Positions 9,399 through 55,347 of a stretch of 64,000 nt of DNA are shown here, one piece after another. Position numbers and translations under genes: made by a program. Below the pieces are notes generated by a model, which worked only from the letters and a program-made list of their open reading frames with translations, ran no database searches and was not told the origin of the DNA. Source of the DNA: Malacoraja senta (taxonomy: Eukaryota); NCBI GenBank assembly GCA_038087875.1, contig CM075993.1:9736001-9800000 (forward strand), in the 5' to 3' direction. Position 1 is the first letter of the stretch, and every line of letters begins with the position of its first letter.

Positions 9399-9605
9399 AG
9401 GGCCTGTCCCACTTGGGCGTCATTTGCACGTAATTTCCGCGACATCATTTACGACGCGCGCATGGTGCGCATTACCCGCGCATGGTGAGTGGTGACGTCA
9501 GCAGTGACGCGCAGTTGCGCGCGGCGCCCCAGGATTTTGGGATGTACAAAACCTTTGCGCGCCATCTGCGTGACGCACAAATGACGCCCAAGTGGGACAG
9601 GCCCT
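9399..9605. mobile_element. Harbinger/PIF-type palindromic MITE
   Basis: Long TIRs agggcctgtcccacttgggcgtcatttg / caaatgacgcccaagtgggacaggccct, with TAA/TTA flanks. Confidence 0.85.
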
Positions 9606-9995
9606 TTATTCTCCAACTGTAATAAAAGTCGACAGGAATGCAGAAATAGAGCGCAGCGGGAACAATTAGCAAACTCATTTGAATCCTTTTTCCAACTCAT
9701 TTTTCTCTCAGTTCCATATTTGTTTCATTTTCATTGAATTTCATCTAATCTAAAAGAGTTCCGTCCTGAAACATTGCCTATCCATGTCCTCCAGAGATGA
9801 TGCTTGACCCACTGAGCAGTGCTTTACTTTACTCAAGAATCCATGCTTCACTTAATCATTACTAGGTATTTCAACAAAATCAGTAATTGTTCTTTGTGAA
9901 TTATTAGCAATCGAAAAATTATTTGTTTCCAAATGAATGCTGTATCGAATGGTATGTTGTGCAATTCATTAATCACAAATGTGCAGAAAAGCTGC

Positions 9996-12137
9996 TGCCT
10001 ACTTTGAAGAAGTTCTCCTCCTCTCTCCGGAGACTGTTCCACACCCAACTCGCTAACTGCCCCATCTCTGTGCCGCCCCTCCCCCAGCCCTCGGGCTCCT
10101 CCTCCTCCTTTTCCTTTTTTCCTTTCTTCTCCCCACCCCCTATCAGTCTGAAGAAGGGTTTCGGCCCGAAACGTTACCTATTTCCTTCGCTCCATAGATG
10201 CTGCTGCACCCGCTGAGTTTCTCCAGCATTTTTGTGTACCTTCGATTTTCCAGCATCTGCAGTTCCTTCTTTAACACTTTGTCTACTCCACTGCGAAATC
10301 TCGTCAAGGTATGCCTACTTTGAAGAAGTTCTCCTCCTCTCTCCGGAGACTGTTCCACACCCAACTCGCTAACTGCCCCATCTCTGTGCCGCCCCTCCCC
10401 CAGCCCTCGGGCTCCTCCTCCTCCTTTTCCTTTTTTCCTTTCTTCTCCCCACCCCCTATCAGTCTGAAGAAGGGTTTCGGCCCGAAACGTTACCTATTTC
10501 CTTCGCTCCATAGATGCTGCTGCACCCGCTGAGTTTCTCCAGCATTTTTGTGTACCTTCGATTTTCCAGCATCTGCAGTTCCTTCTTTAACACTTTGTCT
10601 ACTCCACTGCGAAATCTCGTCAAGGTATGCCTACTTTGAAGAAGTTCTCCTCCTCTCTCCGGAGACTGTTCCACACCCAACTCGCTAACTGCCCCATCTC
10701 TGTGCCGCCCCTCCCCCAGCCCTCGGGCTCCTCCTCCTCCTTTTCCTTTTTTCCTTTCTTCTCCCCACCCCCTATCAGTCTGAAGAAGGGTTTCGGCCCG
10801 AAACGTTACCTATTTCCTTCGCTCCATAGATGCTGCTGCACCCGCTGAGTTTCTCCAGCATTTTTGTGTACCTTCGATTTTCCAGCATCTGCAGTTCCTT
10901 CTTTAACACTTTGTCTACTCCACTGCGAAATCTCGTCAAGGTATGCCTACTTTGAAGAAGTTCTCCTCCTCTCTCCGGAGACTGTTCCACACCCAACTCG
11001 CTAACTGCCCCATCTCTGTGCCGCCCCTCCCCCAGCCCTCGGGCTCCTCCTCCTCCTTTTCCTTTTTTCCTTTCTTCTCCCCACCCCCTATCAGTCTGAA
11101 GAAGGGTTTCGGCCCGAAACGTTACCTATTTCCTTCGCTCCATAGATGCTGCTGCACCCGCTGAGTTTCTCCAGCATTTTTGTGTACCTTCGATTTTCCA
11201 GCATCTGCAGTTCCTTCTTTAACACTTTGTCTACTCCACTGCGAAATCTCGTCAAGGTATGCCTACTTTGAAGAAGTTCTCCTCCTCTCTCCGGAGACTG
11301 TTCCACACCCAACTCGCTAACTGCCCCATCTCTGTGCCGCCCCTCCCCCAGCCCTCGGGCTCCTCCTCCTCCTTTTCCTTTTTTCCTTTCTTCTCCCCAC
11401 CCCCTATCAGTCTGAAGAAGGGTTTCGGCCCGAAACGTTACCTATTTCCTTCGCTCCATAGATGCTGCTGCACCCGCTGAGTTTCTCCAGCATTTTTGTG
11501 TACCTTCGATTTTCCAGCATCTGCAGTTCCTTCTTTAACACTTTGTCTACTCCACTGCGAAATCTCGTCAAGGTATGCCTACTTTGAAGAAGTTCTCCTC
11601 CTCTCTCCGGAGACTGTTCCACACCCAACTCGCTAACTGCCCCATCTCTGTGCCGCCCCTCCCCCAGCCCTCGGGCTCCTCCTCCTCCTTTTCCTTTTTT
11701 CCTTTCTTCTCCCCACCCCCTATCAGTCTGAAGAAGGGTTTCGGCCCGAAACGTTACCTATTTCCTTCGCTCCATAGATGCTGCTGCACCCGCTGAGTTT
11801 CTCCAGCATTTTTGTGTACCTTCGATTTTCCAGCATCTGCAGTTCCTTCTTTAACACTTTGTCTACTCCACTGCGAAATCTCGTCAAGGTATGCCTACTT
11901 TGAAGAAGTTCTCCTCCTCTCTCCGGAGACTGTTCCACACCCAACTCGCTAACTGCCCCATCTCTGTGCCGCCCCTCCCCCAGCCCTCGGGCTCCTCCTC
12001 CTCCTTTTCCTTTTTTCCTTTCTTCTCCCCACCCCCTATCAGTCTGAAGAAGGGTTTCGGCCCGAAACGTTACCTATTTCCTTCGCTCCATAGATGCTGC
12101 TGCACCCGCTGAGTTTCTCCAGCATTTTTGTGTACCT
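9996..12137 (+). repeat. Tandem array of 316-bp units (about 6.8 copies), each with a minimal type I hammerhead ribozyme motif; retrozyme-like / tandem Penelope pLTR
   Basis: Exact 316-nt periodicity, also visible in the ORF track. The motif gtCTGAAGAa-gggt-ttcg-gccc-GAAAC-GTT-ac starts at 10148, 10464, 10780, 11096, 11412, 11728 and 12044. Confidence 0.9.
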
Positions 12138-14120
12138 GCTGTCCCTAATACCCACTGCAATTTTCTTTGGACAAATGATCAAAAATAAAAATAAAGACTT
12201 GCAAATAACAGCTCTCACGATTCCAGATCTTTCCAAACAAGATTATGTCCTATGAAATAGTTCTTGAAACCCACTCACTGCTGCAATGCAGAAAACTAGG
12301 CAATAGGTGGGCACACAGCAAAATACAACAAATGGCCAAATGACTTGCTTCATCAATTCAGAGATCAATATTGATCAATTTTATACGGAATAACTGTCAG
12401 TCTTCTTTGACGTACTACCAGGGTTTATACTAATATGCAAAAATAAATTGATCATCAAGTTATTACCTCCTTTGCAAAAGGAATCTCCAACAGTGTACAA
12501 CCCCTCAGTCCTGCACTTGAACGTTAGCCTGGATTTTGTGTGCTCAGTTCTCCTGATCAGGACACACACACACACACACACATACAATGGTCTCACTCGG
12601 AGTGCTATCTAGAGTGTCACAAACGTGTCTGACATTGTATATATTTGTAACTTCCTGGTTTGGATCTCTAGAAAGCTGCTATGTTTGCTTAATCTCATTC
12701 CTAACTTTGTTACTGAACCATTTTACTTTCATCGAAAACTGCAAATTTATTTTGCTGATTTTATCTTCATTTTTTTTGTCAACATTCCGAGGAAAGCTGC
12801 AAAGCTCTCATTAAAAAGCCCATTAAAACTAGGTAATACCACACAGTCATTCTCATGTGTGATCCTAATCATCAGAACCTCAACCCAAAACATCTAGCAT
12901 CCCTCTGCTTCCATATATGCTGACTTTTTGTTTTTCGCTCTGGAGTGCAGCATTGGCAATTGTTGTATTTCCAGAAGCCTACTTGACTTTGGCAAGTAGT
13001 GGCAAAGAGGACAGGTCAAGGGAAAAAAGCTGCTATATATGATTGCATTCCCAGCCAACATTGACAATTACACACAGCCTACAAATCGGTATTAAAAAGG
13101 TCAAAGGCATTGATTATACCAATGAGGGGTGAGATTCTATAAGGTACTTCAGGAGCAAGTATTATTCTACCCAGAGGGTAGTTCGTATCTGGAACAAGTT
13201 GCCAGAGGAAGTTATTGAAACAAATATAATATGACTTAAAAGACATTGGGACAGATATGTGGAAGATATTTAGACAGTTGTGTGGAAAGTAAGGTTTTGG
13301 AGTAGGCAGATAGGGAGAGAATGCTTCTTCCCTGTTACCTGCTGGGGCACAGTTCCAGCAACCCAGGTTCAATCCAGTGCTTCCCACCTGGAGCTTGCAG
13401 GCTCTCTCCGAGACTGCAATGGCTTCTCCCAAGTGTTCCAGTTTTGTACCACATCTTGAGGAGATGCTGGTCAGTTAATTGGTTTCTGTTAATTATCCTT
13501 AGTATAGGTAAGTGGTGGGAGAATGAGGGTGGAGAGAGAGAATGAGCTGGCTCTGGGATTCATGGGATTGCTCTGAGCCTTTATATGCCAGAAGCATCCA
13601 TCCATGTCAGATGAAAACATGACAGAGAGAATTCTAAAGACACATACCCTCAAAACAAAATTGCCCTATTTCATATTAAATGGGTAATTACTTTTTCCCC
13701 CTTTAAAACATGATTCTCCCATAGCAGGAGACACCCAGTCTGAAGGGCCTCAACCCAAAACATCACATTCTGTCTCCAGAGATGCTGCCTGACCTGCTAC
13801 TCCAGTTTTGTGTCTATCAACAAACTTTCCACCCCGCCATGTCAGGATTATTGAGGACCTCATGTTTCTGTCAAGTCCCCACTTCTCTTCAAATCTCCAA
13901 TGGATACGTCTAGTCTGCCCAACTTCCCCTTATAATACAATCCACCCATTCCAGGTATTAGTTTAAACCTTCTCTGAAATTCATCTAACATATTGACATT
14001 TTTTTACGTAAGGAGATCAACACCAGACATGGTCTCACCGATGTCGTGTTTAGCTGAAGCAGAACCTCCCTAACTTTGCATCCATTTCCCAGAGCAGTAA
14101 ACAACATTTGGTAATGTTAC

Positions 14121-14946: not shown

Positions 14947-16998
14947 AACATGTTACATGTTGCACCCAGGCAGCATCCCCTCTACCGAGCATGAATCCTT
15001 AATTTGGATTGCTCACACTGCCACAACTTCTTTGTATCTTTAATCACTAGAAGATCCTTTTCTTCTTCTACTATACCCATTCATTGTATTAAAATATGAA
15101 GGTAGAGCTCCACTTCTGCTGCTTTGCTAATCCGTAGTCCATTATGCTTCTCTTTACCACACAATACAACCCTAACCCAATAGTTAGAACCTTAGTTATT
15201 TAGTTTGTACTCTCTGCAGATAGATTTGTTCACAATGAAAGAAACATTCATCATTACTTTTATACTTACAATTTTAAAACATTATCAGTATAATGTATCT
15301 AATAGATTTTAAAAAAAAGATAGACACAAAGTGCTGGACTAACTGATGTGGTCTGGCAGCATCTCTGGAGAAAATGGATGGGTGATGTTTCAGGTCTGGA
15401 CCTTTCTTCATACCGAATGCCCAGCACAGCAGGAAGAAGAACCCTGACCCGAAACGTCACCCATCCTTTTTCTCCAGAGTTGCTGCCTGACCCGCTGAGG
15501 TACTCCAGCATTTTGTGACTATCTTTGATATAAACCAGCCTCTGCAGTTCGTTGTTTCTAATAATGTCTCCAATAATTCGCTGTAACCTTGGAAATAAAG
15601 AGAGCACGAGTTAACAAACTGGTTTCAAAATCCAATAGGGATTTTGAGAATAGGCAAATTAAGATTGCCTGTACATGTTTGCAGCTTTCAACGTGTACAA
15701 TCTAATTAATGGTCCAGCACAATGCTGTGTGGAGTTTGCAAGTTCTCTATGACCACCTGATTTCCTCCCGTCACAAATACGTGTGGGTATGTAGGTTAGT
15801 TGGCCTCTATGAATTGCTTCTAGTGTGTTGAAAATGAAAGTGGAATAACATAGAACTAGTCTGAAGGGTTTATCAATAGTCAGCATGGACTAGGTTGGCC
15901 AAAAGGCCTGTTTTCATGCCATATCTCCAAACTAAAAGTTCCCTGAACACACTGTAAAAGTGCAGTTTTAGGCTTCATTACTTCATTCTACCTTTAGCAG
16001 CAGATAGAAATTACACTCAATATTCATGCTGATTTGGTTAAATGAGCATACATCTATTTCAATAAACAATTGTGCTGGCCTCAACATTAAAGAACATTTT
16101 CAATCTATTTTTGCAGCAAAATAATTGGTTGGCCAAATACTATTTCCTTGTCTGAACTGCCCACAGGTTTACATATAATTTAACTGCTCCACAAAGGTCA
16201 TGTACAGACAGAAGAGGTCCAAGTCCTGAACTCTGGTACTCGCAGCTACAGTAATCCAATTAGAAATGATCACCTCGGGCCATTCCCATCCTCCCCCACA
16301 GGAGATATTTAACCAGGTTATTGAACTTGCATCGAAGGACTTTCACCTCAGACAGAAATCCCCTGGAAGCCAATTAATCAAATACCACGCATTAGGCGAG
16401 TTACAAACAAGACTAACACTGCAAAACAAAAACGTTGCCCTGTTTTGAAATAAAAAAACTGAGATTTGGAAGATTAGAAAACCTAAAAACATGTTTTTAA
16501 GTCCCCAAACCAGTCAACCAACATCTGCAGAGAGGAGACACAAAAAGCCAGAGTAACTCAGCAGGTCCGACAGCATTTCTGGAGAAAAGGAATAGGCGAC
16601 GTTTCGGGTTGAACTTCAATCTGAAGAAGGGTCTCGACCCAAAACATCACCTTTTCCTTTTCTCCAGAGATGCTGTCTGACCCGCTGAGTTACTCCAGCT
16701 TACTCCAGTCTATCATCAGTTTAAACCAGCATCTGCAGTTCCTTCCTACACCTCATCTAGAGAGAACTACCACTTTTGGATTATTAAGCATATTTCCTTC
16801 TATAGATTTTTGCTTCAAAAACACAGTATATCCAGCATTTTCTACCTTAGAACCATTTGCTCTAAAGATTTTTTACACCTTTGCATATGTACCAGTTTTG
16901 CGGTAATACCTGTACTTCCAAAGACTTTAAGCTAATGCAAATTAATGATATCAAGATATGAGTATGAGAATAAATATGAGAATATGATATCAAAATAT

Positions 16999-17095
16999 CA
17001 GTCTGATGAAGGGTTTCGGCCCGAAACGTTGCCTATTTCCTTCGCTCCATAGATGCTGCTGCACCCGCTGAGTTTCTCCAGCACATTTGTCTAAT
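16999..17095 (+). mobile_element. Short pLTR-derived insertion with intact hammerhead motif (CTGATGA variant)
   Basis: gtCTGATGAagggtttcggcccGAAACGTTgc, flanked by the direct repeat tcaaaatat. Confidence 0.8.
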
Positions 17096-35253: not shown

Positions 35254-38200
35254 AAATAGTAAGATTAAACGAGAACTTACCTAAGTTTGAAGTTTGATCT
35301 TTATTTTATGAGGAGTTACGTAGGTGATTACATGAAGAACCCCGCCAGTGCGCCTGCGCGTCAATCTTCAAAGCAGCGGTGTGAAATCACAAAAAACAAC
35401 AACCGAAGTAATATAGTCTCATAATAAAACGAGTAATACAAGAACTTCCATCTGACCTTTATGATAGAGGGTAGGGTCGTGGCGGGCACGTAATCACCTA
35501 CGTAACTCCTCATAAAATAAAGATCAAACTTCAAACTTAGGTAAGTTCTCGTTTAATCTTACTATTTTACTTCGGAGTCACGTGAGTGACTACATGAAGA
35601 TTTTAAAGCTTTGTGATTTCATGCCGTAGATCAATCCAGGCTTCTCACTGCATTGATTGACTCGGAACGAGAAATAATCAATCATGCATTCATAATAACA
35701 TTTGTACCACAAATGCAGTAATTCATTTCAATAATGAAATTAATCAGATCCCCTTTAAACCAGAGGAATTTACACAGAACTTAAAATAGTTTCTGCAAAC
35801 AATCCCGCATTAACAATAGGCCGATGGTAAAAATGTTGAAACATCAACTCATTGGACCACCCGGCGGCTGCGAGGATATGGTCGACGGGGATGTCTTTTG
35901 CCCTGGCCGCCGACGTTTCTGCTGCCCTAGTCGAGTGAGATGTAAAAACATAAGTGTTAATACCAGCAGCTGTTAAGACTTCTTTTATCCATCTGGAAAT
36001 AGTCTGTATTGAAACTCTCTTGTGTGGTTTCTTGTGTGTGATCAACAACCCAGTTTCCGTATTTTTCAAATTCTTTGTGACCTTAATGTATTGTAACAAA
36101 TATGTCTTAATACAGAGACAAGGATCATTTGGATATGCTGCTAGCATAATTTTAAATCCTGTCACACCTGGCCTAATTTGCTTTAGTAGGTCATAGATAT
36201 AGAATGTAACCTTATCTTCAGTTAGTTCCATACTGTCTATTTGTAATTTTCCAAGTGTTTGCACTCGTTGTGCTGTCACTCATGCCATAAGCATGAATAC
36301 TTTCGTACTGAGCTTGCCAAAGGTAAAGACACACTTGATGACCATTCACGAAGTAGTTTCAGTACCACACTTACATCCCAGATTGTCATGTACCTAGGTT
36401 TCAGTGGTTTGGAATTAAAGATTCCTTTCATTAGTCTGGAAACAATTGGGTGTAACCCAATTGGGTTTCTTTCTGAATCCAGAACCAAATATGAGGACAA
36501 TGCACTTCTGGCTGAATTAATTGCACTACAACTCAGACCTTCATCATAATAAAGTTTTCACAGAAATTCTAAACATTTGAAATATCTGCAGTACTTTATT
36601 GCACATTCTTTTGTACACAGAACTCTTCCCATTTCTTAATATAAGAAAGGTACTGTTTTTGAGTGCTCTTCCTCCAGGCTGCCGTAAGCATGTCCACAGT
36701 ACGCTCAGACAGTCCTCGTCCCAGAAAAGGCATTCTTAAAACCTGCAAATCAACAAATCCAAACGATCATATAATGGATGTTGTTCTTAAAACCTGCAAA
36801 TCAACGGATACCATGGCTGTGTAGGCCAATCTGGTACTACCAATACCCTTGAAGCAGCATCTTGCCTGATTTTAAGCAAACATTGGCTTATGAGGCAGAA
36901 AGGTGGAAATATATATGAAAACATACCACCCCAATGTAGTGAGAAAGCATCAATCGCCACTGCTCCTGGATCTGGTTTCCATGAGACATATCTCGATAGC
37001 TGATGATTCAAGTCGATGTCGGGCATTCCAAATCTGATTACTATATCATTGCATACCTCTTGATTCAACATCCATTCTTTATTATCATGGAACTTTCGTG
37101 ACCTGGTGTCTGCTATCGTGTTCATTCTACCTGGTAGATAGATAGCTGAAATCCAAATGTTCTTTTCAATACACCAAGACCAAAGTTGATTTAACCATTT
37201 TGTCACATGACACCGACTTAATTCCACCCATATCATTAATATAGGCAACTGCTGTTGTGTTTATTAATTTGAACTTGAACCTTCCTTTTAGTTGTGTTAG
37301 AACCGTAAGCTTGGAGTCCATAGAAACCTCCTAAAAGCTCCAAATAGGTAATTCCCCATGTCTGCAGTAACAATAACTCTTCCTGATTCCATCTGCCTCC
37401 GCAGCTAGATGTTAAGTCAGTTGCACCCCATCCTAGTGCACTGGCATCAGTTTGTAATATCATGGAAGGTTGTTCAATCAGCACTTTACCTGAACTGCTT
37501 GAGACATGTAGAATCCACCACTGCAGATTAGAAACAGTATTTGTTGTTACTTGCATGGTTCTATCAAAATGACCAGCATTTACTCTCAGTGCCTGTTCTT
37601 TGATTCTCTGCAGCTGTTGATAATGTAATGGTCCATACTGGACTGCTGGGGATCTACTAATTTTCCCAGTACTCGAGCCACCTGTCTGATTAGAGGTTTT
37701 TGCTCGTTTAACAGATTACTGCAATCTTTAATCAACTCCACCCTTTTTTCACTGGGCAAAGTAATTTGCATTTGGGCTGAATCAATTGTGAACCCCAAAT
37801 AATCAATCGAGGTACATGTTTTTAACCTTGATTTCTTTGGATGAATTTAGAAACCCCCAAACTTTCAAAAGTTTGATTTCATAACTGCAACCGATGCGTC
37901 TGTTGACTGTTTTGTCCTTCCTATAATCAGGACATCATCCAGGTATGCCATTAGTACATGCCCCTGGCTCTCAGCAACCCCAGAATTGATTTTAACAATT
38001 TTATGAATATTCTGGGAGCGAACGTTAACCCATTAGGCAGAGCTTTGAACTGCCCTAATTGGTTCATCCATGTAAATTTAAGATACTTCATATCTTGCAA
38101 GTGAACAGGCACTGAACAAAAGGATTCAGACTTGTCAAGTCTATAATAATCCTACATCCTCCATCCTTTTTTGATCGAGGGAATATATTTGACCCAAATT

Positions 38201-39918
38201 GGTGAATTTGGTAGACTGATTCTTCAATAACACCTTTTATATATAGGGTTTTGAAGCGCAGCTTGAACCTCCATTACTTCGCAAAGTGGAGAGTTCTGCT
38301 AGGAACATGCTGGACAGGCAAATCATAATTTGGAATGAATTCAATTCGAAATCCTTGTATATTATTCAGAATTACCACATCTGAAGTAATCTTCTTCCAA
38401 TGTTTATAGAAGAGACGTAATCTGCCTCCAACTTTTGGACTTAATCCAGTTAGTATGTTCCCATGAGAACCAGGTCCACCTACCTCTTGAGTCATTTGAG
38501 TATTCTGAGATCCCTGGATTCTCCCGGAAGCACCACCACTGGTTCTTACTCCCGCTGCAGGCCGCCAGCTACGTCCCTGCGTTGATGAGCGACTTGGTCC
38601 TGGTCTAGGATCCGTATGACGTCTGAAAGGATACTTCCTCTTTACAGACTTTGCAACCATTGATGTTTTTATCAATCCTGTTTTCACTTCATCTTCCAAC
38701 TCTTTAATACGTCTCCCGAGATCCTCTCCAAAGAGTAAGTTGGGTAATTGTATATTACTTGGTTTGCAGAGTGCTGCGAATTTCGGATTCATAGTAGGCC
38801 GTATAGCACCTTCCTCAGATAACTGATCTCGAAGTGGGTGCTGCATAGCAACCCCAGTGCTTCCTGATGCAACTTCGTCATCTCTTGGCTGTTATCTGCT
38901 ATTCTGGTAAAAGCAGTTATTCTAGAACCCAGCAGCTTTAATATTCTCTGCAACTGATTCCAGATAATTTGGTTCATTGCTGCTGCTTTCAGCAACCCAC
39001 AGTTACTTGGGGTCTCCTGCTTTCTTGCAGTCTCATCCATCTCCTGCTGTTCCAGCTGATGGTAAACCAAGTAATTTATTAAGGAGGCCAGTTCTTCTCC
39101 TAATGGCTCCCCTGACCCTGACGGGGCAGCGAATCCTACTGCCAGGGGTGGAACATCTGGCAGCTACCGTTCATCGCCTTGTACAGCCTCACCGTCAGAG
39201 TCGGGGTCTGAAATCTCATGACCCGTAGCACGCTCCTCATCCCTGAGGGTGCATTCCATCAGCCCTGTGCCAGGTGCTGTTGAGCTGCTTCCAGCAGCTT
39301 GGATTTCAGTACACTACTTCCTGAGTGAACTTTGCTCCAAGAGCCTATGTAAAAGGCTTTCTATTTGGGCAATACGCTCGAAAGCAGTATCTAGCCCTGT
39401 ACCAGGAGCTGTTGAGCTGCTTCCAGCAGCTTGGATTTTAGTACACTCCTCCCTGAGTGAACTTTGCTCCAACAGCCTATGTAAAAGGCTTTCTATTTGG
39501 GCAATACGCTCGAAAGCAGTATCTAGCCCTGGAGCTACTTCCATTGCCTGGGACTCCCTCCGTGGGCCGTTGGGATTTAAACCGGGGTTTACAGGCGGTT
39601 GGTCGCTAACCGTGGACTCCCGACTTCCCCGGCTTTCTGTCGGCTGTGTCGCTCGCCTCTTCCCCCTGCCCGTTTAAAAAAAAAAAAAAAAATTAAATTT
39701 TTTTTCCATGGCGTCTGTGGAAAAATCCCCACAGACCCACAGTAAACGGACCTGGAAAACATGAAAAAAGTTTCTACTTACCTTGTAGTTGAAAAACTAC
39801 AAACCACTGGAGGAGCTCTGCTCCTCACGTCCGTTTGCGTCAAGGCGTCTGACGTAATGACGCGCAGGCACACTGGCGGGGTTCTTCACGTAGTCACTCA
39901 CGTGACTCCGAAGTAAAA
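35254..39918 (-). mobile_element. DIRS1-type tyrosine-recombinase retrotransposon, structurally complete with frameshifted ORFs
   Basis: Inverted terminal repeats are present, and an internal complementary region (ICR) at 35490-35600 matches both termini. ORF remnants: gag-like (38274-39544), RT/RNase H (LQTDASALGWG, ITYLELL), methyltransferase-like (VAIDAFSLHW...IFPPF) and tyrosine recombinase (HSTRAA, AAGW...FYHR). Confidence 0.92.
35770..36279 (-). pseudogene. DIRS tyrosine recombinase C-terminal part
   Basis: HxxR motif (HSTR), AGW and the putative catalytic Tyr (HFYHR). The upstream part is in another frame (36276-36500). Confidence 0.85.
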
Positions 39919-42480: not shown

Positions 42481-42810
42481 TGGATTCTGAAACACAATGT
42501 ATCTGATTTAGAGTTGGCCCTTAAGCCTCATCACTGATGATATTTGGTTGGGTAGACAAAAAAGCTGGAGAAACTCAGTGGATGAGGCAGCATCTATGGA
42601 GTGAAGGAAATAGGCAACGTTTCGGGTCGAAACCCTTCTTCAGACTTTTTGTCTACCTTCGATTTTCCAGCATCTGCAGTTCCTTCTTAAATATTTGGTT
42701 GGGTGTTGCTTCCCGGTTTCCATTTAAAGTTTTCTGCGCAGTCTATCAATGAATAGAAACGGGATAGGAATTTATTTGTGTTTTGAGATGAGAAGATAGG
42801 AGTCAGATCT

Positions 42811-44760
42811 GTGGAGACTGTCACAGTGGACAAGCAAATAAAGATGTTCCCAAACCGGAAACCCTGGTTGAACAAGGAGGTTCAGGATATGCTAAGGGCA
42901 CGCAACAATGCCTTTAAATCCAGGGACACTTCTGCTTACAGTGCGGCCAGGTCGAACCTGAACAGAGGCATAAAAAAGGCCAAAGACATCCACAGGCAAA
43001 GGGTAGAAGACCACTTCAACACCGCGGACACCAGAAGCATGTGGCAGGGTGTCAGGGACATCACCGACTACAAGAGCAGCCCCGCCTGCCCCCACGGTGA
43101 TATCACACTGGCCAACGAACTAAACACCTTCTTTGCCCGGTTCGAAACTGGCAACACCACCAGGAGTGGAATAACCCCGGCCATGGCGGAGGGACAGGCC
43201 TTAACACTGAGCACCCAGGAGGTACAGTGCGCTCTGCGTAGGATCAATCCACACAAGGCTGCAGGCCCGGATGGAGTCCAGGGAAGGGTACTAAAGGACT
43301 GTGCTGTACAGCTGGCGGAGGTATTCACGAGAATCTTCAATCTGTCTCTATCTCTGGCAACGGTCCCCAAGTGCCTAAAAACAGCCACCATAGTGCCGGT
43401 GCCGAAAAAGTCCAAAGTCACCAACCTGAACGACTACCGCCCGGTTGCCCTAACTCCAATCCCAATGAAGTGCTTCGAAAGGCTGGTCCTCTCCCATATC
43501 AAATCCAGCATCCCTGCCTCACTGGACTCCCATCAATTTGCATACAGGGCAAATAGATCAACAGAGGATGCCATCTCTCTGGCTCTTCACACTGTCCTGA
43601 CTCACCTGGACAGACAGGGCACGTATGTGAGGATGCTCTTCATTGACTATAGCTCTGCATTCAATACGGTCATCCCCACCAAACTCATCACCAAACTCCA
43701 CCAGCTAGGCCTCAGCTCGCCGATATGCGATTGGATCCTGAACTTTCTGACGGAGCGACCGCAGGCAGTGAGACTGGGCCCGCACCTGTCCTCCACTATC
43801 ACCCTGAGCACCGGCACACCACAGGGCTGTGTACTAAGCCCCATGCTCTACTCCCTCTTCACTCACGACTGTGTCCCTGCATTCGACACCAACACCATCG
43901 TGAAGTTTGCAGACGACACTACAGTGATTGGGCTGATCACCAACGGTGATGAAACAAAATACAGAGCGGAGGTGCAGAACCTGGCGGACTGGTGCGCTCA
44001 TAACAACTTGTCACTAAACACCTCCAAGACCAAGGAGCTGATTATTGACTTCAGGAGGTCCCATAATGGAGAATATGCCCCAATCTCCATTTACAGGGAA
44101 AGTGTGGAGAGAGTGTCCAGCTTTAAGTTTCTGGGCACTCACATTTCAGAGGACCTCACATGGTCCACCAACACTGCTGCGCTGGTGAAGAAGGCACAGC
44201 AACGACTGTTCTTCCTGAGGACATTAAAAAAAGACTGGTCTGCCCCAACAGCTGCTGACAACGTTCTACCGCTGCACCACAGAGAGCATATTAACGTATG
44301 GCATCTCTGTGTGGTATCTCAGCTGCACGGAGGCGGAGAGGAGAGCTCTTCAGCGCGTTGTCCACAGAGCGCAGAGGATCATTGGGACAGAGCTACCAGC
44401 CTTGGAGGGCATCTACCACACACGGTGCCTCAGGAAGGCCGTCAGCATCCATAAGGACTCATCACACCCTTGTAACGGACTGTTTGAACTACTTCCCTCC
44501 GGCAGACGTTACAAGGCCTTCTACGCCCGAACCTCCAGACTCAGAAACAGCTTTATTCCAAGAGCTATAGCGGCTCTGAACCGGCCCTGCTGAGTGCCCC
44601 CCCACCCACCCCCCCTGGACAGTCTCCCTCGGATGGTCACGTCACTCAGCTTGCTTATTTATTTATCTTACTTTTCTTGTACATCGGTGGAGCTGCATAC
44701 TAAATCTCGTTGCACTGACGTGCAATGACAATAAAAGATATTATTATTATTATTATTATT
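42811..44760 (+). mobile_element. Rex1/Babar-like LINE, 5'-truncated, RT domain nearly intact (one frameshift near 44230)
   Basis: 547-aa ORF with KAAGPDG, DYRPVALT, QFAYRANRST, FIDYSSAFNT, GTPQGCVLSP and FADD. AATAAA is followed by an (ATT)n tail. Confidence 0.92.
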
Positions 44761-46512: not shown

Positions 46513-48263
46513 TGGGAAGTTTATATAGATAGTTCATCAAAATCAAATTAGATGAATATAAGAAATTAGAAAAAGGCCAGCAGTCTTCATGGGACAAGAT
46601 AACGGATGCTCTTCTACCACAATACCATTTTCCTGTCCTCTCCCTATTTATATGTGATGATACCTTTCATTATCTCTTTATTGATTTCTTTTTAAATGCA
46701 GTCAATGTCTTAGCCTCCATATCCGGTGGTGTGAATAATTCCAGAGTTCTTAATGCTTCAATGAGGTCATCTCATTCTACTATAATCTCTAGAGAATGAG
46801 ACCCGACCTACTCAATTTCTTCTCTTATGACCAACCTACCATATCAGGTATCCAGGAAGCAGTCTGGTGAATCTTGCCACACTTTTTCTGTAGCAAGTAT
46901 ATCCTTCTTTGGGAAAGGAATTAAAAAATACACTGGTCTAACTAAGATCCTATATAATATTAGTAAGATATTCTGGTATCCTAATAAAGGTAAATGTACC
47001 ATTTACCTTTGCTACTGTCTGCTGTACCTACATGTTACTTTCTGTGACCAACGTACAAGGATGCCCAGTACCACTGAACATCAGAATTGTCCCATTCTCT
47101 CATCGTTTCTGGGTTTTTTACTACCAAATTGAAAAACTTCAGCTCACTGAGTCTGGGCAAACCATCAAGCATCAATTTGCGCTACTCTAAGTTAATTCCA
47201 TTTATATTTATCCAACATTCTCAGCAACACTGCTCCCTCCCCCTGTCTGATCCTACCACTCACCTACAGGGTCAGGGCAACTCACGGTGCGATACGATAA
47301 TTTATCCCAGGAGGAAAATTGGTCTGCTAACTGTCATAAAACACAACAAGATACAAGAAACATGAAATTAATGTGATGAGTGGAAAGGATTGGAGATGTG
47401 TAAAGATTGGGGGGGAGGGGGAGGGGAGTCAGTCTACCCCACGACAGAAAGGGGAGGAGTTGTACAGTTTGATAGCCACAGGGAAAAAGGATCTCCTGTG
47501 GCGTTCTGTACTGTATCTTGGTGGAACCAGTCTGTTGCTGAAGGTTGACCAGTGTGTCATGGTGGGGATGAGCTGTATTGTCCAAGTGGCCAATTATCCA
47601 CATGACCCAGGTAAACATCATGGGAGAAATCTAGAGCACCCAGAGGAAACCCACGCAGTCACAGGAAGAACATGCAAACTACCCACACAGACAACACCCA
47701 AGGTCAGGATTGAACCTGGATCCCTACTGTGGGGCAGTGGCTCGACAAGCTATCCCATTCTGCAGCCAATTAGAGAAAAGGTTCAGTTTAATGGCTTTCA
47801 TCTTCAAAGCAGAATACTAGGACTGATGTCTTGGTTCTGTTGCTGTGGTGAAATGGAGCATCTGCAGATGATATATTTGTCTCCAGAGTACCTGGAATGT
47901 TGAGAGCAATGGTGGAAGAGGGATTTCTATTCTGACTGTTATTCAGTGAGCCCATAACTAGTCTATCGAATTTGCCCTGGTTTGTTTTACAAGATTTCCA
48001 GAAACGGATTAGAACATATTAAGATGACTGAGATTCATGGGTGCTGGGTTACATTCTTTTCATTCATTTGATATAATTTCATATGAATTGTTTGGGTCAT
48101 ATTACAAGCATTTATAGGAAAACTCTTGAACTTGAGAGGAGCTTTAATCTGCCATACATTTTTAGGTTGTCTTTTGTTTACTTTACAACAGAGATTCTGA
48201 AACTCAGCATCCTTCCTGTCCTTTTACAGATCTCTGTGGTTGGCAAAAACGAGAGTGTTCAAA

Positions 48264-48885
48264 ATGCAAGAAGAACGAAACATTCGGATAATAGAATGGG
48301 AGGACATGGACAAGAAAAAATTCTACTCTGTTGGTCTTCTCATGGCTCTGTCAATCCGCTTAGGAGTTTATCCCATCATACTGATTAGAACACGGCTTCA
48401 GGTCCAAAAAGGCAGGAGCCATTACAAAGGCACTTCTGACGCATTCAGTAAGATTCTAAAATCTGAGGGGATACGAGGACTTTACAGAGGGTTTCTGGTG
48501 AATACGTTTACCCTAATCTCTGGCCAAGCGTATGTTACGACCTATGAACTAGTGCGCATGTATGTATCCTGCTACAGCGACAATAATGCAGTTAAGTCAA
48601 TTATAGCTGGAGGCTCAGCATCCATTGTGGCACAGAGCTTCGTAGTGCCCAGCGATGTCATTTCCCAGCACCTAATGATGGCCGGCCAGAAAGGCTACAG
48701 GGGACGATTAGAGATGTCCCAGATAACAGGCACTACCAGACAAAACTTTGGCCAGGCAAAGGAGGTTATTGTTAATATTTTCAAGATTGATGGCCCACGA
48801 GGATTTTACAGAGGATATTTAGCTGCCTTGTTGATGTACATTCCTCACAGTGCACTGTGGTGGCCTTCTTACCACTTCTTTGCAG
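48264..48885 (+). CDS. SLC25A44: Mitochondrial carrier SLC25A44(-like), first coding exon (exon 48230-48885)
   Basis: MQEERNIRIIEWEDMDKKKFY...YPIILIRTRLQVQKG...GLYRGFLVNTFTLISGQ...WWPSYHFFA matches the SLC25A44 N-terminus. Acceptor cttttacag| lies before 48230 and a phase-1 donor gcag|gtatgt lies after 48885. Confidence 0.93.
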
Positions 48886-48928
48886 GTATGTGATATTACA
48901 GTTCCTCTCATATCATCCTTTTATTAAA

Positions 48929-49364: not shown

Positions 49365-52300
49365 TTTTTTTATTTTTATTTTTATTTTTTTATTTTATTT
49401 ATTAGAAGTACATTACATTACAACCAATTACACTAGTACTCATCACATATATCTTATTATAATTAATGTACTCCATTTATTTTCTACACTAATAAAGGGA
49501 AAGGATAAGATTGAGAGAAAGAAGAAAGTGAAGGAAAAAAAGTTGTAAAAAACGTGACAACAAAAAAACAAAAACAAAAAAAGACAAAGACCCTATAAGA
49601 AAGAAATTAAACACAAGAGGAAAGAGTTAAGAAATAGACCCTAAAACAGAAGAAAAAAGAGAAAGAGGGAAAAGAGAAAAACAGATATTTTTTTTGTAAG
49701 CATCACGCAAATGGGACATACCAACTCTCCAGCTTTCATCCCCCCTTACCTGACCTCAGTTTTTTTTTTGTACTTTTGCACCCTATACTTGTAATAATTC
49801 TATAAATGCAGACCACATCAGGTGGAAGTGATCTGGTTTACCTGCCAGGAGGAGTCTTATCTCTTCTAGGTGTAATGTTTCGAACATATTTGAAATCCAC
49901 ATGTTTATAGTTGGTATTGGAGCGTTTTTCCAGAATTTTAGGATTAACTTTTTTCCAGTTATTAACCCATAGTCTATTAATTTCTTTTGGAACACATTTA
50001 GTTCTGGGCTATCTTCCTTTGTTCCAAAGATAATCCATTCTGCTTTGGGTATCAGTTTAATTTTAAATAATTTTGTAAAAAGTTCAAAAATTTCAATCCA
50101 AAATTTTTGAATTTTTGTACAGAAAACAAATGAGTGCGCTATAGTAGCTTCTTGAGATTGACATTAATCACAAATTGATGATACATTTGGGAATATTTTA
50201 TTGATTTTAGTTTTAGAATAATATAATCTATGTAAAATTTTAAATTGTATTAAAGTGTGTCTTACATTAATCGAACATTTATGCACGTTTAATAAATATT
50301 CATTCCACCTTTCCTTTGAAATTTTAATAGCTAATTCTTGTTCCCAGTCTCTTCTAATACCTTCCGTAGATGGTATTTCTACATTTAAAATAATATTATA
50401 CAAATATGATATTAAGTTTGCTGATTCAGCTTTTATCTGCATTGCTTCATCCAATACATCTGTTGAGGTATTATGATGATCTTTTGTATATTTTTTTAAA
50501 TAGTCACATATTTGAAAATATTTAAAGTATTGATTATTTCCGAGTTTATATTTTATTTGTAATTGTTGGAATGATAGTAATTTTCCAGTTTCGTACAAGT
50601 CACCGAACGTTTTAATTCCTAGTCTATCCCATTGTATGAAAGATTTGTCTGTAATAGAGGGATTGAATAAATGGTTATTAATTATGGGAGATAAAAGCGA
50701 TAAATTTCTTAATTTTACAGTTCCTCTCATATCATCCTTTTATTAAATACTAGACCAAGTGCAGACCCGTTGGGTCTGCACTTCTTTGTTTTATTTGTTT
50801 CCAAGTTCTAATTGTGCTATGTATAATTGGGTTTTTGTTATAATTTATGTTATTCAGTTTCATTGGTGAGAGAAGGATCGCTCCAATGTTTCCAGAGGAG
50901 CAGTCCTCTCTCTCCATTACAATCCAGTCCACTTGCTGGGCAGAGTTGTCCATCAGTTGAATCATATTTTTAATATTTACTGACCAATAGTAATACATGA
51001 AATTAGGGAGTGCTAAGCCCCCTAATACTTTAGCTTTGTTCAAGTGTGTTCTTTGTATTCTATGTGATTTATAGTCCCATATAAAATTCGTAATGTCTGA
51101 ATCCATTTTTAAAAAAAACTTCTTTGGTAGGTATATAGGAATCGATTGAAATAGGTATAAAATTTGTGGTAAAAAGATCATTTTTATTGCATTTATTCGG
51201 CCTATTAAAGACATCGGGAGCGTTTTCTAAAATTTAATTCGTGTATTTAATTTATTAAGTAAGGGATCAAAATTTGCTTTAAACATGCCTTGATATGTTC
51301 TAGTGATTTCGATTCCCAAGTATTTAACTTTTTCTGTAGCTATTTTAAAAGGGAATTTTAAAAGATGTGTTGAGTCTTTCGGTTTTATTGACATAATTTC
51401 ACTTTTATTCCAGTTTATTCTATATCCAGAAAAGGATCCAAAATCCTCAATTAAGTTTAATATATTTGGTATAGTAATTTGAGGTTTTGTAATGTACAGT
51501 AATATATCATCCGCGTATAAAGATATTTTATTATTTGAATATTTAGTATTATACCCATGGATATCAGGGTGTGTTTTAATTTTTTCTGCTAACGGTTCAA
51601 TTATGAGAGCAAACAACTGTGGTGATAATGAGCATCCTTGTCTATTTCCCCTTGATAGTTGAAATTTCGAGGATAATATGTTATTAGTTAATATTCTAGC
51701 TGTAGGTTTATTATATAATAGTTTAATCCATAAAATAAAATTCTCTCCCAGTTGGAATTTTTGTAATACTTTATCCATATAATTCCATTCTACTTGGTCA
51801 AATGCTTTTTCAGCGTCCAACGAGATGATTGATAATTCTTGTTCTTCAGATTTATGTGAATGCATTATATTGAGTAGACGTCTCATATTATTAGATGAGT
51901 ATCTTTTAGGGATAAACCCAGTCTGATCTGGGTTTATTAGTTTGCTAATTAGTTTGCTAATATATTTACTTAATCTTCTAGCTAGTGTTTTCGCTAATAT
52001 TTTTTGATCTGTGTTTAACATATGAACCCGGTTCTTCTATATCTTTGTCTTTTTTAAGTATTAGTGTGATCGTTGATTCAGCTAGTGTATCAGGTAATAT
52101 TTGTTTTTTAAAAGCATATTGGTACATTTTTTGTAATTGGTATAATTATGTCGTAGAAGCTTTTATAAAATTCATTAGTAAATCCATCAGGACCTGATGT
52201 TTTTCCATCCTATAATGAGTTTATTGTATCTTCTAATTCCTTAAATGAGATTTGTGCTCCCAGTTCCTCTTGTTCCTTCAACTCCAACTTTGGAAGCTTA

Positions 52301-55300
52301 CAATTATCCAAAAACTCTGTAATTTTATAGGAGTCAGTTGTCGTTTTAGATGTATACAAATTCTCATAAAATTGCGCAAATCTTTTATTAATATCCTTCG
52401 GTATGGTTAATAATTCCCCTCTATCTGATTTAATCTTTGGGATCGTATGTTCTTTTTCTCGTTTTTTTAGCTGGCGAGCCAAAAGTTTATGCGGTTTATC
52501 CCCAAATTCAAAGTGCTCTTGTTTTGTAATTTGAAAAAGTCTTATAAGTTTGGCTGATAATAGTTTATTTAATTTAAATTTTAAAATTATTATTTTATTA
52601 TGTTTATCTATTGATGGATCTTTAGCATTGTCTATATCCATTTGTCTAATAAGTTCCTCTAACTGTCTTTGTTCATTCTTATTCTTTTTATTTTGAAAAG
52701 CTTGATATGAAATTATAATACCTCTAATGTATGCTTTAAAATATTCCCATAATACAGTAGGCGATATATCTGGAGTGTCACTTATTTCAAAAAAGGCGTC
52801 CATTTGTTCTTTTAAATATATACTCGCTTGTGGATCTTTTAGGATGTGAGAATTAAATCTCCAAAACGGTTTATTCTTAGACATTCCTTCCAGTTTTAAA
52901 AAGAAAGTTAGTGGTGAATGGTCTGAAATCGAATTTGTAGGTATGTTGGGTTAAAAGTATGAGGGATTAATTTTGTGTCCACCAGGAAATAATCTATACG
53001 TGAGTATGTTTTGTGTACCATTGGATAAAACGAGTATTCCCTGCCAGTTGCATTAACAATTCTCCAAACATCTGCTATATTAGTATTGTTTATATAAGTA
53101 TTTAAAAATTCGTTTTAGATTTCGTATTCCCTCTCTGTTTTTGGCTTGATTTATCTAAATACGGATCTAAAACACAGTTAAAGTCTCCTCCTATTATAAC
53201 ATTTTGATAATTAAACTCTGCGATTATGTTCAGAATTTTATTGAAAAAATGCGGGTTGTCAAAGTTAGGCACGTATATATTTACCAAGGTAATTGGAGTA
53301 TCATGAATTTCTCCATTAACTATTAAGTATCTCCCTTCAATGTCTGTTATAGTATTCTTTGCTTTGAATGGTATACCTTTTCTTATAATGATTGACGTAC
53401 CTCTAGATTTCGAAGTAAATGAAGAGTGGTATGTTTGACCTATCCATTTCGCCCTCAACCTAGCTTGATCCTGAGATTTTAGATGAGTTTCTTGTAAGAA
53501 GATAATGTCAGAATTGTACAGTTTCAGCTGAGCTAGTATCTTAGCCCTTTTAATAGGTTCGTTAATACCTCTTATATTCCAACTACAGAATGAGACTCCT
53601 CCTAGGTTCTTTTGTTTAGCATCTTGCATTTTGAATAATTATAGTACCTTTAAATCTTGTGGTGCGTCCATATCCCAGGTCTTTGGGTATTGGGGGAAGC
53701 TTTGAATTTCTAAGTTTTGTTGGCATATCCCGTTTACGCTTATCTCTAAACACAAAACACAAACATGTGAATTTATGTGATAATAAAAAAATAAATTTAA
53801 AAAAAGTGAAAATACAGTGTCTAAAATAGTCGACACTGTAACAAGTGGCCCACCTGTAGGTGGGAGAAAACCTTGTTTCGACTTCCATTGTTGGTGTTAA
53901 ACAAATAACTCCGCTCTCTTGATTAATCATAACATATTAGAACGGGGCCTCACATTCAGATATATAATACAATTTTACCCTATATATTTCATTATAACAT
54001 ATCATATATATATTGCAATTTTAGCTACTAATTATTAAACAAATGATTTTAGCTTCAGTAATAGTCAACTGTTGGTTGAAGGGGTTAACGAGACGCGCCC
54101 CTGGACCTAAGCCAGGTGCTCGTTTCTCATCCCCTCCTCCCAATTATAGATAAGGTTTAAATTTAATAAAAATTCATATTAGTTTTGTTAGTTCATTATT
54201 TTTTATTTTTATTAGCGTCCGTAGCTATTCTAATCTAACATAGATAACTTGTTAAATTATTAGGTTGTTAATAGGATAAAATCTTACAATTGGATTTATT
54301 ATTGTAGTCTATTAAACAAATAATGCTTCTGGTATATTCCATACAGTTCAGTTCAGCTGTTTACTCGTTTTGAACAAAGAGTGTCCTTGATTCAAAATTC
54401 CATAGATAACAGTCTATCCATCCTAAACAAAACACTGCTTGGAATGGCTCTAATCTGCCAAACCTCCATTAACCGTGGAATTCTAGTTTTTTAGAATTAA
54501 TTCATACTATTAATTTCTATTTTTCAACGATGCTCTGGGCATATTTGAACGCTTCCTCAGGTTTTACAAATGACTTTTCAAAACCATTAAAAGAAATACG
54601 CATTTTGGCTGGATAAAAAACACCGAATCTGACACCTTGTTTCCCTCTTAAAAGCTCTTTAGCCTTCCCGAATTGATTTCTCTTTTGCACAATTTCATAC
54701 GGATAGTCCCTGAATATTTTGATAATGTCATTGTCCATCCGTAGTTGCACTCCATATTTGATTTTGCTCATGACATCTTCCAGTTCTGAAATGTCCCGAA
54801 ATTTCACAATAATATGTCGTGGGTGGGTTTTTCCAGCTTCAGATCTCTGTTTAAATCTTGGAACACGATGAGCCACTTCAATTTTCGGTTCTTTGGAAAG
54901 ATTAAGCAAATGTTTAAGTAAGCCCATGGCAAACTCACGAACGTCCTTTCCCTCGGTTCCCTCTGAGACTCCAAGAATTCTCAAATTCTGGCGTCTAGAG
55001 CGAGCTTCCAGGTCCAGGCTTTTGTCTGAGACTTTCCCCAATTGAGTCACCATCTGTACTGAAGTTTGCTCATATTCTTGCTTCCTTTGATCATGTTCTT
55101 GCCTCATTTTCACCATTTCAACCACTCGAGCCATATTTTTCTCCAATTCCGTAATTGTAGCCATACTTGCAGCTACTGTTTCAAGCACAGCCGTGAACCT
55201 GTCCGTAGTCATTTTTTCCATCTTGTCCATTCTCCCCGATAGTCCATCTTTCACATCATCAATTTGTTTATTTATAGTGTCCAGTGAATCAGCCACCTTC

Positions 55301-55347
55301 TGATTACCAGCGTTCGAACCCTTCATCATCTTTTCAATTTTTTCCAT
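49365..55347 (-). mobile_element. Near-full-length L1-clade LINE (ORF1 plus disrupted ORF2); 5' end lost in the assembly gap
   Basis: ORF1 54517-55347 (LEARSRRQNLRILGV). ORF2 endonuclease 53102-53629 (SWNIRG, FLQETH, GGDFN), RT 51227-52021 (DAEKAFD, RQGCSLSP, YADD) and C-terminus to 49783. A-rich tail at about 49365-49400. Confidence 0.93.
54517..55347 (-). CDS. L1 ORF1p (coiled coil plus RRM/CTD, transposase_22-like); open up to the gap
   Basis: 276-aa uninterrupted ORF with L1 ORF1 motifs RRQNLRI, AHRV and IFRDY. Confidence 0.8.
   Translation of the reverse strand: MEKIEKMMKGSNAGNQKVADSLDTINKQIDDVKDGLSGRMDKMEKMTTDRFTAVLETVAASMATITELEKNMARVVEMVKMRQEHDQRKQEYEQTSVQMVTQLGKVSDKSLDLEARSRRQNLRILGVSEGTEGKDVREFAMGLLKHLLNLSKEPKIEVAHRVPRFKQRSEAGKTHPRHIIVKFRDISELEDVMSKIKYGVQLRMDNDIIKIFRDYPYEIVQKRNQFGKAKELLRGKQGVRFGVFYPAKMRISFNGFEKSFVKPEEAFKYAQSIVEK

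What the first reader, a model, noticed from the sequence alone, without database searches (positions are those of the whole stretch)
9996..12137. Homogeneous 316-bp tandem array with one hammerhead ribozyme per unit: candidate retrozyme / circular-RNA system
Seen in sequence: about 6.8 head-to-tail units that look identical by eye. Each has GU-[CUGAAGA]-A-GGGU(UUCG)GCCC-[GAAA]-C-GUU/AC. That gives the conserved hammerhead core, a stem II capped by UUCG, a loopless palindromic stem III (AACGUU), and upstream GU pairing with the AC after the predicted cut (after 10175, then every 316 nt). Established: minimal type I hammerheads with palindromic stem III are typical of Penelope-like pLTRs and can cleave as dimers, and metazoan non-LTR retrozymes are tandem repeats of a few hundred bp with one hammerhead per unit that yield monomeric circular RNAs. 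Inference: a transcript across the array could pair neighbouring cores, cleave into 316-nt monomers and circularise. The non-integer copy number and homogeneity suit rolling-circle reverse transcription by a Penelope RT. I am not aware of a characterised chondrichthyan example but cannot search.
Basis: partly seen in the sequence, partly recalled or inferred. Interest (0 to 1): 0.9.

Follow-up and report, generated by a model that had tools for sequence, protein, structure and literature searches.

The report
Penelope retrotransposon stutter carrying hammerhead ribozymes
The repeat is one recent insertion of a Penelope-type jumping gene whose copying enzyme most likely went round the same short piece of its own RNA several times, and sister insertions suggest that such ribozyme-bearing arrays can be born without the ribozyme.

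Summary
The array is real: 6.78 identical 316-bp units, each with a minimal type I hammerhead. The unit is a fragment of a young, intact Neptune-type Penelope-like element (PLE): bases -238..+78 around its ATG, closed head to tail.

The array ends at the family's usual 3' end (-70) and has a short target-site duplication. Its junction occurs at this locus only (7 of 7 matches). The hammerhead 31-mer has 18,581 exact copies in the genome.

Of 66 sister loci, 12 are multi-lap arrays with their own unit lengths (26-2,145 bp), and 4 of the 12 lack a working hammerhead. Five of 15 arrays, this one included, have a geometry that needs two or more junctions in the primary cDNA. Some show junctions that differ from lap to lap.

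Best reading: the PLE reverse transcriptase started internally and lapped one RNA fragment in a single insertion; later DNA-level expansion may have added units. The hammerhead was a passenger, although 5' ends are about twofold enriched at its cut site. No RNA data were available, so a 316-nt circle is untested. PLE-derived vertebrate retrozymes, one chondrichthyan included, are already in a 2026 preprint.

The parts
9996..12137 (+). Whole insertion: 6.78 head-to-tail copies of PLE bases -238..+78 (numbered from the element's ATG); begins at +2, ends at -70
9992..9997 (+). Left copy of a probable 6-bp target-site duplication CTGCTG (last 2 bases shared with the insert)
   Evidence: 6 bp or more in 0 of 196 window-specific mismatched flank pairs and 0.7% of 9,694 general pairs
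12136..12141 (+). Right copy of the target-site duplication (first 2 bases shared with the insert)
9996..10072 (+). First, incomplete lap: ORF start +2..+78; 5' end of the insertion
10072..10073 (+). Unit-defining junction +78|-238, blunt, no added bases, no GT-AG; repeated at 10388, 10704, 11020, 11336, 11652, 11968
10073..10142 (+). Pyrimidine-rich 3' UTR part of the pseudo-LTR (-238..-169), first copy
10143..10148 (+). TCAGTC, initiator-like (consensus recalled); family-wide 5'-boundary peak at -167/-166, inferred transcription start; overlaps the 5' arm of hammerhead stem I; one per unit
10146..10177 (+). Minimal type I hammerhead, first of 7; predicted cut GUU/A after 10175 (then 10491, 10807, 11123, 11439, 11755, 12071)
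   Evidence: 5'-boundary excess at this site
10178..10277 (+). 5' UTR segment holding the family's two 3'-end positions (inferred RT start sites): -70 (10241) and -34 (10277), 36 nt apart, the PLE 'tail'
10311..10388 (+). First 26 codons of the PLE ORF (no RT or endonuclease), once per unit
   Evidence: 26 of 26 residues identical to the intact ORF of L050
11969..12137 (+). Last partial unit (-238..-70): the stretch copied first if synthesis began at -70

Best explanation
The array is one young target-primed insertion made by a Neptune-type PLE protein from a short piece of the element's own read-through RNA. Steps: (1) shown: the unit is contiguous parent sequence -238..+78. (2) shown: the right end is the family's main 3' end and the insert is flanked by a short duplication. 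(3) inferred from PAc biochemistry: the protein nicked DNA and began reverse transcription inside the RNA, at -70. (4) inferred: it ran to -238, re-entered the same RNA at +78 and went round again, at least twice, stopping at +2. The template was functionally circular, either by re-entry on a linear fragment or by ligation at a non-hammerhead site; I cannot tell which for this locus. (5) possible: unequal exchange added some units later. The hammerhead was copied uncut in every lap as a passenger of the pseudo-LTR. The product has the anatomy of a newborn retrozyme (a start site and a dimer-type hammerhead in every unit) but no proven offspring.
For: Parent: ORFs of 1199-1239 aa in 6 of the 20 regions, RT plus C-terminal GIY-YIG. 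3' ends: 52 of 108 at -73..-67 and 28 of 108 at -37..-31. TSDs: 10 bp or more in 36 of 99 insertions, mode 14, against 0 of 9,694 mismatched pairs; they also flank long arrays (L031 11, L032 11, L073 12 bp). Frequency: 12 of the 66 loci behind the first 100 of 357 matches have two or more jumps back to one re-entry point. No hammerhead needed: 4 of those 12 lack core or stem I (L074 53 bp, L075 165 bp, L078 219 bp, L090 26 bp), as does L191 (61 bp). Geometry: 5 of 15 tabulated arrays (window, L073, L074, L076, L128) start downstream of their end phase, so a one-junction precursor would lack part of the unit; 7.4 are expected if synthesis stops at random in a lap (P = 0.16 for 5 or fewer) and 0 under plain duplication. 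L076 and L128 have exactly two junctions. Re-entry on linear RNA: L072 has two laps of -167..+121 with different linkers; L090 re-enters at +48 four times with exits -775, -32, +23, +23; L074's re-entry shifts +27, +26, +24. Privacy: 4 of 4 large arrays tested have their junction at one locus only. Internal initiation and hammerhead-independent insertion are shown in vitro for PAc (PMC11167929).
Against: No cDNA or RNA intermediate was seen; every step after (2) is inference from genomic fossils. The window's TSD is 6 bp, not 14, and shares 2 bases with the insert on each side, so a later left-end deletion cannot be excluded. Junctions that exit at the start site usually carry linkers of 4 nt or more (7 of 10, against 2 of 34 elsewhere; hand tally, Fisher P = 1e-4), so seven clean identical junctions fit repeated run-off jumps poorly and point to a ligated template or later DNA copying. 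In L031 one C>T change is shared by 5 of 14 units, which shows DNA-level spread in at least one array. No TSD was found for L007, L075 or L078. L007 differs from the window unit only by 2 junction bases over -238..-70 and shares a variant carried by 253 of 5,446 parental matches.
Confidence: 0.66

Rival explanations
1. True retrozyme cycle: an older array was transcribed, cut by dimeric hammerheads into monomers, ligated seamlessly at the cut, and the circle was rolled by the PLE RT into this site. The +78|-238 junction would be inherited from the donor.
For: A seamless re-ligated hammerhead leaves no scar, so the intact cut sites do not exclude this. 5' boundaries are enriched at the predicted cut: 33 of 100 listed matches against about 16 expected; 24 of 87 after removing deletions, variants and a duplicate (P 0.003-0.009); 8 of 23 true boundaries among the 30 fetched loci (P 0.02-0.03) (hand tallies, tested). 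L075 and L191 have units that begin exactly at the cut. L007 could be a donor after a 2-nt slip.
Against: No donor or daughter with the same junction. Other +78|-238 loci differ in diagnostic bases (L058 at 4 positions, L010 and L064 at more), so that junction is a recurrent hot spot. Three larger arrays have no daughters either. The hammerhead has a 2-bp stem I and a GUU site; min-HHRs cleave poorly even as dimers (PMC4209133), and 8 of 9 Xenopus dimers did not cleave (preprint). The predicted circle is only 44% paired, z = -2.0. The model also cannot make the first array.
Confidence: 0.15
2. Local satellite birth: an ordinary one-junction partial-tandem insertion was expanded by unequal crossing-over, and its left end was later trimmed to +2.
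For: One-junction partial tandems are the commonest form in the census. L031 shows a shared variant. This is the route proposed in 10.64898/2026.07.22.740005. The units are 100% identical, and the short TSD with 2-base overlap would fit a trimming event.
Against: It needs an extra deletion here and in L073, L074, L076 and L128, all of which keep a flanking duplication. L010, L032 and L075 would have had terminal repeats of only 10, 22 and 1 bp to seed expansion. It does not explain lap-to-lap junction differences.
Confidence: 0.13
3. Assembly artefact: a shorter insert was inflated to 6.8 units.
For: Zero differences among units; no contig spanned the array in the four runs laid (which covered only the left flank and one unit).
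Against: Sister arrays with unit-specific variants have the same build; both ends match the family's biological end sites and a TSD; no gap nearby.
Confidence: 0.05

Closest known systems
Vertebrate non-LTR retrozymes as PLE pLTR derivatives (Li, Clavereau, Pollet, bioRxiv 10.64898/2026.07.22.740005)
   Same: Tandem repeat, one type I hammerhead per unit, derived from a PLE pseudo-LTR; the paper reports them in one chondrichthyan (mean consensus 363 bp; 75% of families have at most 7 units).
   Different: That study infers kinship from co-occurrence and trees and proposes local amplification after insertion. Here the junctions, end phases and TSDs point to multi-lap synthesis at insertion, and some arrays lack the hammerhead.
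Metazoan non-LTR retrozymes of coral, mussel and axolotl (Cervera and de la Pena 2020, PMC7229834)
   Same: Non-coding tandem units of a few hundred bp with type I hammerheads; PLE RT proposed as mobiliser via tandem cDNA.
   Different: Those carry canonical hammerheads, are shown to be expressed as circles, and form large families. This unit has a minimal hammerhead, a weakly paired predicted circle, one locus and no expression data.
PAc (Poseidon) of Anolis (Frangieh et al. 2024, PMC11167929)
   Same: Internal RT initiation at two sites that delimit a 30-40-bp tail; hammerhead not needed for insertion in vitro.
   Different: In PAc the start sites lie 111-118 nt into the ORF; here the main ends lie in the 5' UTR (-70, -34) and secondary re-entry points at +24..+128. 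The paper found no RNA ends at the hammerhead cut, whereas genomic 5' ends here are about twofold enriched there. Repeated laps were not described in the part read.
Partial-tandem and inverted PLE insertions (PMC2377424, PMC8557442, PMC3846280)
   Same: 5'-truncated upstream copy, inverted 5' pieces (32 loci), tails, TSDs.
   Different: Here the tandem unit is a sub-ORF fragment repeated up to 13 times with one junction.
DRT2 concatemer synthesis and R2 template jumping (PMC12039810, PMC8857657; search listings and abstract starts only), and telomerase repeat addition (recalled)
   Same: An RT makes tandem cDNA by copying one RNA segment repeatedly.
   Different: Their boundaries are programmed or assay-defined; here the boundaries differ for each insertion and the product is integrated.

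Membership tests
Neptune-clade EN+ PLE (parent element) | Single ORF with RT and C-terminal GIY-YIG endonuclease | tested here: met
   RVT_1 E 6e-6 and GIY-YIG E 2e-4, both under Pfam's curated cut-off; atlas clusters at 0.98 with the same domains; ORFs
Neptune-clade EN+ PLE (parent element) | CX2-5CXXC linker between RT and EN (Neptune or Nematis), DKG motif | tested here: met
   Read by eye in the translation (CX4CXXC; DKG); definition from PMC8557442. No tree was built, so Nematis is not formally excluded
Neptune-clade EN+ PLE (parent element) | Pseudo-LTR with hammerhead, partial tandems, inverted 5' copies, 30-40-bp tail, TSD | tested here: met
PLE minimal type I hammerhead | Conserved core, extra base before stem II, G10.1-C11.1, palindromic 15.2/16.2, no stem III loop | tested here: met
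   definition in PMC4209133
PLE minimal type I hammerhead | Stem I of 4-5 bp with covariation | tested here: not met
   2 bp; only one-sided changes (U-A/U-G) among 142 motifs, most of them one young family
PLE minimal type I hammerhead | Self-cleavage as a dimer | not testable with these tools
   Indirect only: about twofold excess of genomic 5' ends at the cut
Non-LTR retrozyme, operational definition (Li et al. 2026) | Tandem repeat with at least two consecutive units carrying a canonical or minimal type I hammerhead | tested here: met
   their rnabob descriptor was not run
Non-LTR retrozyme, biological definition (Cervera and de la Pena 2020) | Canonical hammerhead with loop 1-loop 2 contacts | tested here: not met
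   2-bp stem I, no Rfam match
Non-LTR retrozyme, biological definition (Cervera and de la Pena 2020) | The same unit spread to many loci | tested here: not met
   Junction at one locus, 7 of 7 matches; L007 differs by 2 nt
Non-LTR retrozyme, biological definition (Cervera and de la Pena 2020) | Highly self-paired monomer | tested here: inconclusive
   Circular fold -55.6 kcal/mol, 44% paired, z = -2.0 against 60 shuffles
Non-LTR retrozyme, biological definition (Cervera and de la Pena 2020) | Expression as monomeric linear and circular RNA | not testable with these tools
   None of 24 runs was raw reads; the four laid were contigs and the one RNA guess was called probably DNA
Back-spliced circular RNA copied into DNA | GT after the donor and AG before the acceptor | tested here: not met
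   0 of 11 array junctions

The most novel reading that the evidence does not exclude
The PLE reverse transcriptase, sister to telomerase, routinely laps one RNA molecule during a single insertion, by re-entering it or by rolling on a circle closed away from the hammerhead. This one activity would make pseudo-LTR tandems, hammerhead-less minisatellites and, when the fragment spans the hammerhead and start site, a ready-made retrozyme. The window array would be such a retrozyme at birth, able to give 316-nt circles from its own initiators, with L007 as a possible relative.
Probability: 0.4. Interest if true: 0.75.

Novelty: new variant of a known kind. Interest (0 to 1): 0.55.

Why it matters
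How PLEs form their tandems and where animal retrozymes come from are open questions. Schostak et al. [quoted passage not shown] 2026 proposed local amplification and call the mechanism unresolved. This genome has an intact young element and many fresh arrays whose boundaries are known to the base. They favour a third route, multi-lap reverse transcription that does not need the ribozyme, and they name the exact templates for an in vitro test. The array alone, as a hammerhead repeat in a vertebrate, is ordinary.

Tried and rejected
Rfam: no match at gathering score in the window; only two mir-1205 chance hits at E 9.9.

Expression: 24 runs listed, all as contigs, none an RNA run of the best-matching organism. 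Four were laid on the left flank plus one unit; no RNA ends, circle or array length could be read. One contig of another organism covers 9796-9999 and runs on unseen, which would fit an empty orthologous site but was not shown.

Cap-derived G: present before 6 of 10 start-site junctions inside elements (P = 0.02) but not enriched at element-genome junctions (G in 20 of 62 non-C and 9 of 38 C cases, hand tally), so weak.

Back-splicing: rejected. L010 and L064 are one insertion in a duplicated segment, not donor and daughter. L058 shares junction coordinates but not diagnostic bases.

PDB: no relative of the parent protein. Earlier scan findings: none.

Literature searches for a published multi-lap PLE mechanism returned none in their listings; the library lacks most subscription papers, and two relevant papers were not held (Arkhipova 2017, Lunse 2017).

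The census saw only the first 100 of 357 matches and only loci that include the ATG region, so re-entry points upstream of +24 are under-sampled. A few fetched loci are duplicates of one insertion (L166/L167, L173/L174, L189/L190, L010/L064) and remain in the end and TSD counts.

Full report
OBSERVATION. The array spans 9996-12137: 6.78 units of 316 bp with no mismatch. Stem II has 4 bp, stem III can only form between two copies, and stem I has 2 bp. Rfam does not detect it. The motif is common: 29 further BLAST hits in the window and 18,581 exact copies of the 31-mer in the 1.94-Gb genome.

WHAT THE UNIT IS. A search of the genome with the unit (40 of 1,518 candidates scored) led to loci where it is contiguous sequence between a GIY-YIG end and an ORF start. 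Six of the 20 regions fetched hold ORFs of 1199-1239 aa with RT and C-terminal GIY-YIG domains (the Pfam scores are below the curated cut-offs). A CX4CXXC linker fits the Neptune or Nematis clades as defined in PMC8557442 (passages). With the ATG as +1, the unit is -238..+78: part of the 3' UTR, the hammerhead (core at -163, cut after -136), the 5' UTR and 26 codons. It differs from several parental junctions at one position, so it is young.

ENDS. Of 108 mapped insertions, 52 end at -73..-67 and 28 at -37..-31. The two peaks are 36 nt apart, like the two internal RT start sites that delimit the tail of PAc (PMC11167929, parts 1-2 of 4 read). The window array ends at -70. TSDs of 10 bp or more flank 36 of 99 insertions, mode 14, against none in 9,694 mismatched flank pairs. 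The window has a 6-bp duplication, CTGCTG, matched in 0 of 196 window-specific control pairs; it is short for the family. 5' boundaries peak at -167/-166, at TCAGTC, about 5.6 times the per-position rate near the cut (a rough ratio of two different patterns). I infer a transcription start there; the initiator consensus is recalled.

SISTER ARRAYS. I fetched all 66 loci behind the first 100 of 357 matches to the ATG region. Twelve have two or more jumps back to one re-entry point, with units from 26 to 2,145 bp. Four of the 12 lack a working hammerhead (L074, L075, L078, L090), and so does L191, found separately. Each array has its own junction. For the four largest tested, every match lies at one locus: window 7, L031 13, L032 13, L073 11. 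The coordinates +78|-238 recur in L010/L064 and L058, but with other diagnostic bases, so this is a hot spot and not a lineage. None of 11 junctions has GT-AG.

WHY MORE THAN ONE LAP. The window array starts at +2 and ends at -70. A precursor with a single junction would lack -69..+1, so duplication could not rebuild the unit. The same holds for L073, L074, L076 and L128: 5 of 15 arrays, where 7.4 are expected if synthesis stops at random in a lap and none under plain duplication (L090 and L191 were not in this table). L076 and L128 have exactly two junctions. In L072 two laps of -167..+121 have different linkers, in L090 the enzyme re-entered at +48 four times with three different exits, and in L074 the re-entry shifts by 1-3 nt (the L074 shift lies in a CTC run and could be slippage). 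These cases show repeated use of a linear RNA. In L077 and L193 the inverted and forward cDNAs share the same boundaries, which fits one RNA serving both ends.

WHAT IS NOT SETTLED. Start-site exits mostly carry linkers (7 of 10 against 2 of 34), whereas the window's seven junctions are clean and identical. That favours a ligated template, homology-guided re-entry in the C-rich tracts, or later DNA-level copying; L031 shows the last, with one change shared by 5 of 14 units. L007 matches the window unit over -238..-70 except for 2 junction bases and shares a variant found in 253 of 5,446 parental matches. Kinship is possible, but the variant is commoner among the youngest full-length copies and the junction is a hot spot.

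DOES THE HAMMERHEAD CUT? Probably sometimes. 5' boundaries exactly at the cut number 33 of 100 listed matches against about 16 expected, 24 of 87 after removing 10 internal deletions or indels, 2 sequence variants and 1 duplicate, and 8 of 23 true boundaries among 30 fetched loci (hand tallies; P 0.003-0.03 for the cleaned counts). L075 and L191 have units that begin at the cut. This does not show that the array's transcript, if any, is cut. Published min-HHRs cleave poorly even as dimers (PMC4209133, parts 1-2 of 4), the PAc hammerhead needs protein, and 8 of 9 Xenopus retrozyme dimers did not cleave. No RNA reads were available.

COMPARISON WITH THE KNOWN. Li, Clavereau and Pollet (10.64898/2026.07.22.740005, parts 1-3 of 5 read; supplements closed and may list this family) report non-LTR retrozymes in 20 of 31 vertebrates, one chondrichthyan included, as PLE pLTR derivatives. 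By their operational definition this array qualifies. By the biological definition of PMC7229834 (passages and Discussion) it fails on canonical hammerhead and on spread, and expression is untested. It works like the product of a retrozyme cycle but is not shown to be a member. Other papers were seen as passages only: PMC2377424, PMC3846280, PMC6765202, PMC6155905. Four searches listed no paper describing hammerhead-independent multi-lap PLE insertion; the library is incomplete.

VERDICT. Observation confirmed; interpretation partly supported. The array is a PLE insertion made by multi-lap copying (0.66). Rivals: a true retrozyme circle from an unseen or 2-nt-different donor (0.15), local expansion with trimming (0.13), artefact (0.05). 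As a hammerhead repeat it is known; as one of a series of base-resolved array births it makes the origin of PLE tandems and retrozymes testable. Interest 0.55.

Noticed in passing
L075 1445-2105 as oriented (G000:C1:381.27 Mb) and L191 532-651: Tandem arrays (165 bp x 4; 61 bp x 2, 14-bp TSD) whose unit begins exactly at the hammerhead cut and has no hammerhead core: likely copies of the 3' cleavage product.
   Followed up: partly
L072, L081, L094, L108, L114: Re-entry at +118..+121 followed by A-runs of up to 13; either oligo(A) tails on short RNAs or bases added by the RT.
   Followed up: partly
genome-wide; e.g. window 16996-17093 and 42551-42646: Very many ~100-bp solo copies run from the inferred start site (-166) to the main 3' end (-70), SINE-like minimal insertions of the element; 1,561 exact matches to the boundary pattern.
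   Followed up: partly
L079 and L195 (G000:C1:62.70 Mb): A 2,145-bp unit of an internally deleted element repeated with two identical junctions, ending at -35: laps are not limited to short units.
   Followed up: partly
L031 (G000:C2688:130.8-136.3 kb): 13.5 x 408-bp array with an inverted 5' piece and an 11-bp TSD; 5 of 14 hammerheads share a C>T change in the UUCG loop.
   Followed up: partly
L034, L037, L038, L044, L049, L050: ORF length varies from 1199 to 1239 aa among intact copies, with tandem repeats in a proline-rich N-terminal part (78-bp repeat in L037).
   Followed up: no
window 48201-48893 +: Exon of a mitochondrial carrier gene (Pfam Mito_carr E 8e-32); resembles SLC25A44 from recall. 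Whether the array lies in an intron of this or another gene was not established.
   Followed up: partly
window 35770-38891 -: ORF pieces that look like a degenerate DIRS-type element (tyrosine recombinase, RNase H/RT-like; read by eye), next to a 132-bp two-copy repeat at 39261-39531.
   Followed up: no
window 42787-44454 +, 50164-55587 -, 57121-63914: LINE-like RT and endonuclease ORF fragments (L2-, L1/Tx1- and CR1-like by eye); a 200-N gap at 55349-55548 lies in one of them.
   Followed up: no
window 9406-9606: Short CpG-rich element with inverted ends (GGCCTGTCCCACTTGGGCGTCATTTG and its complement), very abundant in the runs laid; probably a MITE.
   Followed up: no
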